Source: Deferribacterales bacterium | GTDB lineage: Bacteria; Chrysiogenota; Deferribacteres; Deferribacterales; Geovibrionaceae | NCBI GenBank assembly: GCA_050253335.1 | Contig: JBFWJG010000008.1 | Coordinates: 1-58,351 of the forward strand | Direction: 5' to 3' | Length of the DNA: 58,351 nt | In this document: positions 45,980 through 58,351 of the stretch, in pieces | Position numbering within the stretch: position 1 is the stretch's first letter | How the letters are laid out: each line of letters starts with the position of its first letter | Translations under genes and position numbers: made by a program | The notes under the pieces: model-generated | Seen by the model: only the letters and a program-made list of their open reading frames with translations | Databases searched by the model: none | Told to the model about the DNA's origin: nothing

Positions 45980-46972
45980 ATGAAAGCCGTACTTATGAAC
46001 GGATTCGGAGGAATTGATGTTCTCAGTGTCGGTGAGGCCGAGAAGCCTTCACCGAAAGAGAACGAAGTGTTGATAAAAGTCGCAGCCACATCCATAAACA
46101 GACCCGACCTTGTGCAGAGAGAGGGCAAATATCCCCCGCCTCCCGGAGATTCTGAAATCCTCGGGCTTGAAGTTGCGGGCGTAATCGAAGAGCTGGGCTC
46201 AAAGGTTACGGGCTGGAAGAAGGGCGACAGGGTTATGACTCTTGTGGGCGGCGGCGGTTACGCTGAATATGCCGTTGCATATGCTGAGCACCTTATGCCT
46301 ATTCCTGCGAACATGAGCTTTGAGCAGGCCGCATGTGTGTGCGAATCATATATTACCGCATTTCTGAATGTATTCATGATCGGCGGGTTTCAGGACGGCG
46401 AAACAGCTATCTTCCACGGCGGCGGCGGCGGAGTGAACACAGCGGCAATTCAGCTTTCAAACGCTCTTACTCCTAATTCAAAATATATAGTGACAGTCGC
46501 ACCTGATAAGGAAGCGAAGGTTAAGGAACTCGGCGCATCGCTCACGGTGAACTTCCGTGAGGTTTCAGATTTTTCCGAGATGGTGAAGGAATTTACCAAC
46601 AAGAAGGGGGTCAATCTCATTCTTGACCACGTCGGCGCGAAATATCTTTCTCCCAACATGAATTCGCTCGCCTACGCTGGCAGGCTGGTGATAATCGGCG
46701 TCACAAGCGGAATCAAGGCGGAGCTTAATCTTGCCCTGATGATGGTTAAACGCCAGCAGATAATAGGCTCTGTGCTCCGTTCCAGACCCGTCTCGGAAAA
46801 AGGGGAGATTGTTAAGGAATTCACAAGGAGAGCCCTTCCCAAATTCGCGGACGGAAGCATTGTGCCCATAATCTACAAAGTCTTCCCCATAGACGAAGCC
46901 GCGGAAGCCCACAAAACCATGGAAGAAGACAAGCATTTCGGGAAAATCGTTCTCAAAATAGCGGATCTGTAA
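45980..46972 (+). CDS. NAD(P)H-quinone oxidoreductase, PIG3/MDR family
   Basis: INRPDLVQREGKYPPPPG, LGLEVAG, GGGYAEY, HFGKIVL. Confidence 0.93.
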   Translation: MKAVLMNGFGGIDVLSVGEAEKPSPKENEVLIKVAATSINRPDLVQREGKYPPPPGDSEILGLEVAGVIEELGSKVTGWKKGDRVMTLVGGGGYAEYAVAYAEHLMPIPANMSFEQAACVCESYITAFLNVFMIGGFQDGETAIFHGGGGGVNTAAIQLSNALTPNSKYIVTVAPDKEAKVKELGASLTVNFREVSDFSEMVKEFTNKKGVNLILDHVGAKYLSPNMNSLAYAGRLVIIGVTSGIKAELNLALMMVKRQQIIGSVLRSRPVSEKGEIVKEFTRRALPKFADGSIVPIIYKVFPIDEAAEAHKTMEEDKHFGKIVLKIADL

Positions 46973-47190
46973 TTTCCGATACCGTGATATTCAGGCACAC
47001 GGATGTGCCCGCGGAGGGCGTACCGGAGCATATGCGAGGAACGCAAGCGAAGCCAGAGCAGCAAGAAGCTCTGCTTCGCAGGCTGCGAGTTCTTAAAAAC
47101 TGCATGGACGCAGGTTTTTACGAACTATAATAAGGACAGACAAGCATTTCGGGAAAATCGTTCTCAAAATAGCGGATCTGTAATTTCCGA
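46927..47190 (+). repeat. 158-bp structured insert flanked by perfect 53-bp direct repeats of the oxidoreductase 3' end
   Basis: AGACAAGCATTTCGGGAAAATCGTTCTCAAAATAGCGGATCTGTAATTTCCGA at 46927-46979 and 47138-47190; insert segment 47039-47125 is 74/87 identical to 58127-58213. Confidence 0.9.
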
Positions 47191-47202
47191 AATTTAATAA
47201 AC

Positions 47203-47223
47203 AGCCCCGTCACTCGGGGCTTT
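47203..47223 (+). terminator. Rho-independent terminator
   Basis: AGCCCCG-TCACT-CGGGGCTTT. Confidence 0.6.
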
Positions 47224-47241
47224 ATCTGTATAAGTTCACCC

Positions 47242-47320
47242 ATGCCCTTCTTTTAAAGGAGGGCATTTTCTTTTATGTTAAACAGCTTCCCCCTTTATAA
47301 AGGGGGACTGAGGGGGATTT
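47242..47320. repeat. REP-like palindromic repeats
   Basis: ATGCCCTTCTTTTAAAGGAGGGCAT (inverted copy at about 55745-55788) and CCCCCTTTATAAAGGGGGACTGAGGGGGATTT. Confidence 0.55.
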
Positions 47321-47379
47321 TACAGATATGAAAGCCTGTTGCCATGTTTCTCATCAGTCCGGCAGTCCCGGCACTGTTT

Positions 47380-57958: not shown

Positions 57959-58351
57959 CAAGGACGCAGGTTTTTCTTAATAATGTGGATTAACAGGATA
58001 TTCAGTTTGATGTTTTTGCAAACAACTCCAAGGACGGAGTTTCACCGTGTGAAGCGAAGCCGAACCGAGTTCGGCGCGAGCGTGTACAGAAAAGGGACAG
58101 GATGTGCCCTTTTCTGCGGCAAAACAGAACGCAAGCGAAACCAGAGCAGCAAGCAGTTTTACTGCGCAGGCTGCGAGTGAAGAAAAACTGCAAGGACGCA
58201 GGTTTTTCTGAACAATATAAATTAAGACAGGATGTTCAGTTTGATGTTATTAAACAGTCCCAAGGATGGGACTGCGCCGTGCGAAGCGAAGCCGAACTGA
58301 GTTCGGCGCGAGCGTGTACATCAAACTGACAGGATGTTCAGTTTGATGTTA
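57959..58351 (+). repeat. Tandem array (~232-bp period) of a hairpin-rich element with GGA loops; runs off the window
   Basis: 57959-58088 is repeated at 58191-58320; eight A(N)GGA motifs, mostly in stem-loops; 58127-58213 is homologous to the 47039-47125 insert. Confidence 0.85.

What the first reader, a model, noticed from the sequence alone, without database searches (positions are those of the whole stretch)
46927..47190. The same structured element sits between perfect 53-bp direct repeats of a gene 3' end
Seen: the last 46 nt of the quinone oxidoreductase gene plus 7 nt downstream (46927-46979) are exactly repeated at 47138-47190. They enclose a 158-bp insert with no recognisable coding function or terminal inverted repeats, containing hairpins GGCACA-CGGA-TGTGCC and AAAAACTGC-ATGGAC-GCAGGTTTTT. 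The insert ends in TAAGGAC and the duplicated DNA follows immediately. In the right-edge array the homologous element ends in TAAGAC and is also followed by a diverged repeat of upstream sequence (from 58229, matching 57995 onward). Established: DDE transposase target duplications are usually about 2-14 bp. Inference: a recent insertion by an unusual mechanism (nick-primed or target-primed copying, template switching, or att-like integration) that leaves a long duplication and does not disrupt the gene.
Basis: partly seen in the sequence, partly recalled or inferred. Interest (0 to 1): 0.82.

Follow-up and report, generated by a model that had tools for sequence, protein, structure and literature searches.

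The report
Hairpin element duplicates neighbouring gene ends
A small non-coding hairpin element with loops like binding sites for the RNA regulator CsrA sits at over a hundred places in these bacteria and is often flanked by two copies of the neighbouring gene's last 18-76 letters, which points to an insertion route with no known enzyme and to copies that are kept identical long afterwards.

Summary
The exact 53-bp repeat and 158-bp insert are real; three congeners have one gene end and no insert here. The insert is one copy of a genus-wide hairpin family (109 loci here) with ANGGAN/AGGAN loops; an earlier scan note described the family on this same window. New here: duplicated gene ends occur at 42 of 170 gene ends followed by a same-strand element, against 0 of 84 opposite-strand and 0 of 918 repeat-free, and the element's 3' tail meets the duplicate through short microhomology. 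'Recent' is not supported: no near-identical source copy exists, and at 10 orthologous loci the junction is shared between species while both copies carry each species' own variants (29 sites against 0), so perfect repeats are homogenised, not young. No reverse transcriptase was found in three of four congeners, and no Y1 or DDE transposase in any. Best reading: old one-step, tail-primed copy-in insertions, later homogenised and sometimes popped out. Closest known: Yersinia YPAL (3-26 bp duplications) and TwoAYGGAY RNAs.

The parts
45980..46972 (+). Host gene, NAD(P)H quinone oxidoreductase of the PIG3 family, 330 aa, intact
   Evidence: orthologues 82-88% identical in DNA in three congeners
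46927..46979 (+). Upstream copy of the 53-bp repeat: last 46 nt of the gene plus 7 nt
46980..46991 (+). 12-nt lead, not conserved among copies of the element
   Evidence: alignment of 15 copies
46992..47137 (+). Type A structured element (core about 146 nt), same strand as the gene
   Evidence: 17 of 41 predicted pairs show a two-sided change
46994..47009 (+). Hairpin 1 with ACGGAT loop (CsrA-site-like)
   Evidence: consensus in PMC7652899
47088..47126 (+). Last hairpin, long stem with ATGGAC loop at 47104-47109 (CsrA-site-like)
47127..47140 (+). 3' tail; its last three letters are shared with the start of the downstream repeat (microhomology)
   Evidence: a contig of another run joins 47140 back to 46996
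47138..47190 (+). Downstream copy of the 53-bp repeat, non-coding here
47203..47221 (.). Terminator-like hairpin, similar hairpin follows the stop codon in two congeners with an empty site
57959..58351 (+). Right-edge array of the same family (type B, truncated type A, type B), cut by the contig end; its internal repeat is element-derived

Best explanation
A non-autonomous, strand-specific element entered this site in one step: a break or free 3' end about 50 nt upstream of the insertion point paired with the element's 3' tail over 2-4 nt, the element was copied in, and the other end was joined just after the stop codon, so the stretch between was duplicated (target-primed copy-in). Shown: geometry, strand rule, tail microhomology, empty orthologues. 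Inferred: the one-step event, and that a host polymerase or a since-lost enzyme did it; whether the template was RNA or single-stranded DNA is open. Most insertions are older than the species splits; this one probably arose in the lineage of this species. Afterwards recombination or slippage between the two copies expands the unit into arrays, keeps the copies identical (shown as concerted evolution) and sometimes removes the element exactly. The element itself most likely works as a two-site CsrA-binding structure in mRNA (inferred from loops, covariation, orientation and a csrA gene; binding not tested), and selection for that would explain why it survives between perfect repeats.
For: Duplicated gene ends at 42 of 170 gene ends with a same-strand element, 0 of 84 opposite-strand, 0 of 918 without repeats, 1 of 35 with CGTC-type repeats, 0 of 33 with CCCCCTT-type repeats (Fisher p 1e-8 for the strand contrast; orthologous loci count twice). 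After the last duplicate, 22 of 48 loci show no element remnant; lengths 18-76, median 36. 27 of 58 junctions start with GA or AGA against 10.6% background, matching the tail. Two loci duplicate a gene START with the element after codon 13-14 (smc and one other), which would cut the gene unless duplication came with insertion. One clean filled/empty pair with an intact native junction, 23 bp. Between same-strand genes elements are sense 47 of 55 and 64 of 84, on both replichores (49 of 61, 15 of 23). Concerted evolution 29:0 sites over 10 loci. csrA present.
Against: No enzyme: RVT_1 absent from G000, G002, G003 and present once in G001 without a match in G000 or the fetched part of G003; Y1_Tnp, DDE_Tnp_1 and DUF772 not found in 4 of 4. 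Most loci have no duplicate. Loci empty in the other species carry a duplicate less often (9 of 29) than shared loci (34 of 62; p 0.04), the opposite of what fresh duplications predict, unless many empty sites are losses. 25 of 48 loci have part or all of an element after the last duplicate, which fits plain tandem duplication. Empty sites can be secondary, so the three empty congeners do not prove a gain. The insert folds as well as DNA as it does as RNA. No RNA data were examined.
Confidence: 0.5

Rival explanations
1. Two-step, enzyme-free route: the element arrives without a duplication; its hairpins promote slip-back during replication so the tail rejoins upstream by microhomology, giving (gene end + element) tandem arrays; the last element is later deleted.
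For: Arrays ending in a full or partial element are common (25 of 48; 27 of 33 junction loci in G003 were array-type); no enzyme found; duplicates are not enriched at lineage-specific loci.
Against: Gene-start cases need an intermediate with a cut gene; the clean pair keeps an intact native junction after the second copy; right edges of clean duplicates cluster at the stop codon rather than at the element start; other hairpin repeats in the same genomes almost never have such duplicates (1 of 68). It does not explain arrival at new loci.
Confidence: 0.22
2. Homing by homologous recombination: a donor allele with gene end + element + gene end converts an empty allele, using the gene as left arm and the duplicated end as right arm; pop-out and re-homing keep the copies alike.
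For: Differences between the two copies are 24 synonymous to 15 non-synonymous codons over 45 loci, above 26% (neutral) or 41% (both copies mutate; p 0.007); repeat edges coincide with coding edges; at one locus the downstream copy matches another species' allele and its element remnant; ComEC is present in 5 of 5 genomes tested.
Against: Cannot create the first copy at a locus; polarising the differences gave 10 changes in the gene copy against 18 in the downstream copy in a partial run (crashed after 21 loci), no clear excess; edge artefacts are among the counted codons. Compatible with the best explanation as a maintenance route.
Confidence: 0.15
3. A decayed MITE moved by a DDE transposase of the long-repeat kind (IS1549/IS1634), now lost from the genus.
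For: Such elements make 8-514 bp repeats with no mechanistic model (PMC2266710); a sister-genus genome holds 22 DDE_Tnp_1 matches.
Against: No terminal inverted repeats, ragged ends, stems vary with compensation instead of conserving an end sequence, strict strand rule, no transposase in 4 of 4 congeners; the DDE-rich genome G008 has no match to either element type.
Confidence: 0.1
4. Assembly artefact.
For: Short-read draft in 142 contigs; many contigs break at these arrays.
Against: Separate assembly of the likely source run holds both junctions; the same architecture and the same junctions occur in a one-contig congener.
Confidence: 0.02

Closest known systems
YPAL / RU-2 repeats of Yersinia (review PMC2229807, section 11; sequence in PMC2759123 Table 1b; the primary paper PMC1636318 was not held)
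   Same: About 160-170 nt, intergenic, internal inverted repeats, variable-length target duplications, co-transcribed with upstream genes, no known mobiliser. By eye the printed RU-2 sequence has two hairpins with AAGGAT and ATGGAT loops.
   Different: Duplications here are 18-76 bp against 3-26; YPAL's two GGA hairpins are adjacent, here they cap the two ends; YPAL is described as recently mobile, these copies are old and homogenised; sequence homology was not tested.
TwoAYGGAY RNA motif (Rfam RF01731; bioRxiv 10.64898/2026.09.22.753630)
   Same: Multi-copy intergenic structured motif with two AYGGAY-type loops (both loops of this copy fit), proposed Csr/Rsm binding, mobile-like expansion called unresolved.
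   Different: No covariance-model match; hairpins are not neighbours on a common basal stem; copies here are tandem and sense, not divergent doublets; 'target site' does not occur in that preprint's main text.
IS1549 and IS1634 (IS1634 family)
   Same: Long, variable direct repeats of host DNA.
   Different: Those are transposase-coding elements with terminal inverted repeats; this has neither.
REP/REPIN with RAYT
   Same: Vertically inherited palindromic repeats that form arrays and multiply very slowly (10.1101/2024.07.17.603846).
   Different: No Y1 transposase found in the genus; long host duplications are not a REP feature as far as I recall.
Non-LTR retroelements / SINEs (recalled)
   Same: Variable target duplication, 3' microhomology, defined 3' end, transcription-linked orientation.
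   Different: No reverse transcriptase in three of four genomes, no poly(A), 5' ends mostly complete, RNA intermediate not shown.

Membership tests
TwoAYGGAY (RF01731) | Covariance-model score at or above 43 bits | tested here: not met
   No match in the window, in 12 loci at E up to 1 or in 21 genomes; no control genome rang, so that search lacks a positive control
TwoAYGGAY (RF01731) | Two hairpins with AYGGAY loops | tested here: met
   This copy has ACGGAT and ATGGAC loops; family-wide the loops are broader, ANGGAN or AGGAN
TwoAYGGAY (RF01731) | The two hairpins are sequential on a common basal stem | tested here: not met
   Consensus fold puts them at the two ends, about 95 nt apart, with no enclosing stem
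CsrA/RsmA-binding RNA | GGA unpaired in a hairpin loop closed by C-G | tested here: met
   GGA unpaired in 118 of 118 first and 187 of 196 last hairpins; stems fold at -9.2 and -12.2 kcal/mol against -3.4 and -4.3 with arms permuted
CsrA/RsmA-binding RNA | Transcribed and bound by CsrA | not testable with these tools
YPAL / RU-2 | Variable-length target duplication, intergenic, downstream of co-oriented genes | tested here: met
   size range differs
YPAL / RU-2 | Sequence homology to the 168-nt unit | not tested
   Only looked at by eye in the paper's table
MITE of a DDE transposase (IS1549/IS1634 type) | Terminal inverted repeats and fixed ends | tested here: not met
MITE of a DDE transposase (IS1549/IS1634 type) | Partner transposase in the genome | tested here: not met
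   DDE_Tnp_1 and DUF772 not found in 4 of 4 congeners; no multi-copy transposase-like protein in 2.6 of 3.0 Mb of G003; other DDE families not searched
REPIN/RAYT | Y1 (HUH) transposase in the host | tested here: not met
   0 of 4 in the genus, 13 of 31 relatives overall
Target-primed retroelement (SINE-like) | Variable target duplication with 3' microhomology | tested here: met
Target-primed retroelement (SINE-like) | Reverse transcriptase available in trans | tested here: not met
   RVT_1 in 1 of 4 congeners only; divergent RTs or host polymerases not excluded
Target-primed retroelement (SINE-like) | RNA intermediate | not testable with these tools
   needs a marked-element assay
Integrase att-site element | One specific attachment sequence | tested here: not met
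   Duplicated segments are unrelated gene ends and starts

The most novel reading that the evidence does not exclude
A bacterial SINE-like RNA: a CsrA-binding module that is copied from transcript 3' ends into the chromosome by target-primed synthesis with a host polymerase and no dedicated reverse transcriptase, rebuilds the gene end it lands in, and then uses that duplicate as a homology arm to re-enter empty alleles, so wiring over a hundred mRNAs into the Csr network.
Probability: 0.18. Interest if true: 0.9.

Novelty: new variant of a known kind. Interest (0 to 1): 0.63.

Why it matters
How GGA-loop repeats such as TwoAYGGAY multiply is called unresolved in a 2026 preprint, and long variable target duplications had no mechanistic model as of the 2008 survey read here. 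This family gives about fifty readable junctions with a strand rule and a defined 3' end, in genomes where the usual transposases were not found, so the mechanism becomes testable. It also warns that a perfect flanking repeat does not date an insertion: here the repeats track each species' own gene sequence across about 15% divergence.

Tried and rejected
Rfam scans found no family for the insert. A first orientation count that mixed convergent regions (81 against 16) was dropped for the tandem-gene test. The first count of flanking repeats, 29 of 95 loci against 6 of 1136 control windows, includes element-derived half hairpins; one search is the cleaner test, and the same scan on G003 gave 13 of 135 against 0 of 1184. 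Leading-strand bias does not explain orientation. An inverted copy of target sequence beside the element at two loci looked like twin priming but at the one checked it lies in native upstream DNA shared with G003; not pursued. The smc site first looked like a clean fresh insertion; the outgroup leader matches the sequence before the second copy, so two of the empty sites there are probably losses. A DUF559 nuclease gene in G002 and G003 is flanked by a different repeat class and absent from G000 and G001, so not the partner. The only GIY-YIG match in G000 lies in a 615-aa frame. Only 5 of 66 relative loci showed a flanking repeat under the strict single-flank test. Lower contig depth over the insert (7.4 against 12-13) is not taken as evidence of empty alleles. 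Literature searches found no description of this family or of homogenised gene-end duplicates; most subscription papers are not searchable, the primary YPAL paper was not held, and preprint supplements were not seen, so this is not proof of absence.

Full report
Observation. The 53-nt stretch at 46927-46979 is repeated exactly at 47138-47190 and occurs nowhere else in the genome. It is the last 46 nt of an intact PIG3-family quinone oxidoreductase gene plus 7 nt. The 158-nt insert has no terminal inverted repeat and no convincing ORF and folds better than all 200 shuffles as RNA and as DNA. The window is a whole contig (C8) of a 2.58-Mb draft genome. A separate assembly of the run that may be its source holds the insert with 30 nt of each repeat and no differences.

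Empty site. The orthologous genes of all three congeners held (82-88% DNA identity) are followed by the same convergent gene, have a single gene end and no insert. A contig from another study with 14 differences in 240 nt crosses the gene-to-insert junction, so the insertion is shared with a diverged strain.

The family. The insert (type A) matches 24 places here and 9, 28 and 15 in the congeners, and none in 27 other relatives. A shorter type B shares the end hairpins; its DNA matched 4 of 4 genomes of the genus, 2 of 4 of a sister genus and none of the other 62 of 68 genomes searched in the phylum. Records titled Deferribacterales and Denitrovibrio carry the motif. Profiles give 109 loci in this genome and 135 in the 2.6 of 3.0 Mb of the one-contig congener G003 that I held; genes were called with my own simple caller. 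Of 301 distinct type B units, 212 first and 274 last hairpins have a C-ANGGAN-G or C-AGGAN-G loop; stems vary with compensation. These loops match the CsrB repeat, the SELEX consensus and the RsmE-bound hexaloop described in PMC7652899 (passages), and csrA is present. An earlier scan note (e1-7660909) had described this family and its loops on the same window and pointed to TwoAYGGAY.

The duplication is a family trait. Gene ends are duplicated downstream at 42 of 170 gene ends followed by a same-strand element, 0 of 84 with only an opposite-strand element, 0 of 918 without repeats, 1 of 35 with CGTC-type and 0 of 33 with CCCCCTT-type repeats (two genomes). Among loci within 80 nt of a sense stop codon, 26 of 45 here and 22 of 60 in G003 carry a duplicate; after the last copy 22 have no element remnant, 13 a part, 12 a whole element and 1 a contig end; clean duplicates are 18-76 bp, median 36. 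Elements start within 25 nt of a sense stop more often than uniform placement predicts (28 of 73 against 12.4; 40 of 99 against 20.5). Between same-strand genes they are sense in 47 of 55 and 64 of 84 cases, on both replichores. Of 87 tail-to-upstream junctions, 58 were kept as host-derived; 27 of them begin with GA or AGA against 10.6% background, continuing the tail consensus. Orthologous loci count twice in these totals.

Age. No two different loci hold near-identical elements apart from contig-break twins and rRNA operons; the median best match is 0.84-0.86 for the large sets and 0.82 for this copy. Of 65 loci comparable with G003, 56 are filled there too, with flanks about 85% identical; 44 had no orthologue in the part held. 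At 10 orthologous loci with duplicates in both species the left junction is the same within 5 nt, yet over 329 sites both copies share species-specific letters at 29 and copy-specific letters are shared across species at 0. The duplicates are therefore homogenised long after they arose. One gene-start duplication is present in three species with the same right edge and missing from the closest congener; at smc the leader before the second copy resembles the outgroup's, so precise loss happens. For this window's site one gain is simpler than up to three losses, but not proven.

Mechanism. In favour of one-step insertion: two gene-start cases with the element after codon 13-14, a clean 23-bp filled/empty pair with an intact native junction, the fixed 3' tail with microhomology, and the lack of duplicates beside other hairpin repeats. 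Against: lineage-specific loci carry duplicates less often (9 of 29) than shared ones (34 of 62), half of the arrays end in element sequence, and no enzyme was found: RVT_1 in one of four congeners, Y1_Tnp, DDE_Tnp_1 and DUF772 in none. Differences between copies are 24 synonymous to 15 non-synonymous codons over 45 loci, hinting that alleles from other strains take part; a partial polarisation was not decisive. I put 0.5 on tail-primed copy-in followed by homogenisation, 0.22 on slip-back duplication after a scarless arrival, 0.15 on recombinational homing as the main source, 0.1 on a lost long-repeat DDE transposase. RNA against DNA template, transcription and CsrA binding are inferred, not shown.

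Comparison with the known. YPAL of Yersinia is closest in behaviour: about 168 bp, internal inverted repeats, 3-26 bp duplications, co-transcribed with upstream genes (PMC2229807, section 11 and passages); its printed sequence shows two GGA-loop hairpins by eye (PMC2759123, passages). TwoAYGGAY is closest in loop motif; the 2026 preprint (abstract, outline and passages; supplements not seen) calls its mobility unresolved and PMC2864571 gave only a table row; the model does not match here. IS1549 and IS1634 make 8-514 bp repeats (PMC2266710, passages). PMC3733652 (term search) had no passage on duplications. REPIN background comes from passages of 10.1101/2024.07.17.603846. SINE features are recalled.

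Verdict. Real, family-wide and strand-specific; an old structure, not a fresh scar; a new variant of the YPAL/TwoAYGGAY kind of element with longer, concertedly evolving duplications and no mobilising enzyme in sight. Interest 0.63.

Noticed in passing
L295:1450-2370 and L294:1100-2000 (G003, G002): A 118-aa DUF559 endonuclease gene is embedded in arrays of CCCCCTT-type palindromic repeats at the orthologous site in two congeners; not found in G000 or G001, although G000 has the repeats. A RAYT-like partner of that repeat class is possible.
   Followed up: partly
G003:C1:2287150-2287856 and 2848388-2849094 (L035, L039): Three element copies lie in the 16S-23S spacer of both rRNA operons, around the spacer tRNA genes, two sense and one antisense.
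   Followed up: partly
L037, L299, L300: The duplicated start of one gene gives a 15-codon upstream frame that ends at the element's first letters in three species; it could be a translated leader peptide.
   Followed up: partly
L023:1433-1717 (G003): The first 13 codons of smc are duplicated around a type A element; the leader before the second copy resembles the outgroup's leader, the other two congeners keep the first leader.
   Followed up: yes
L053 (G001:C3:114810-115451): A 501-aa reverse transcriptase-domain frame found in only one congener; class not determined.
   Followed up: no
window 47223-47330 and genome-wide: Two further palindromic repeat classes (CCCCCTT-type, and CGTC-type elsewhere) share intergenic regions with the element and are often captured inside its tandem units.
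   Followed up: partly
type B core, e.g. window 58272-58290: A conserved GCGNAGC motif with a free middle base resembles the stable DNA mini-hairpin with a GNA loop (recalled), which could point to a single-stranded DNA stage.
   Followed up: no
PMC2759123 Table 1b: The YPAL/RU-2 unit shows by eye two adjacent GGA-loop hairpins, the TwoAYGGAY layout; if they are the same family, a target duplication for TwoAYGGAY has been in print since 2006.
   Followed up: no
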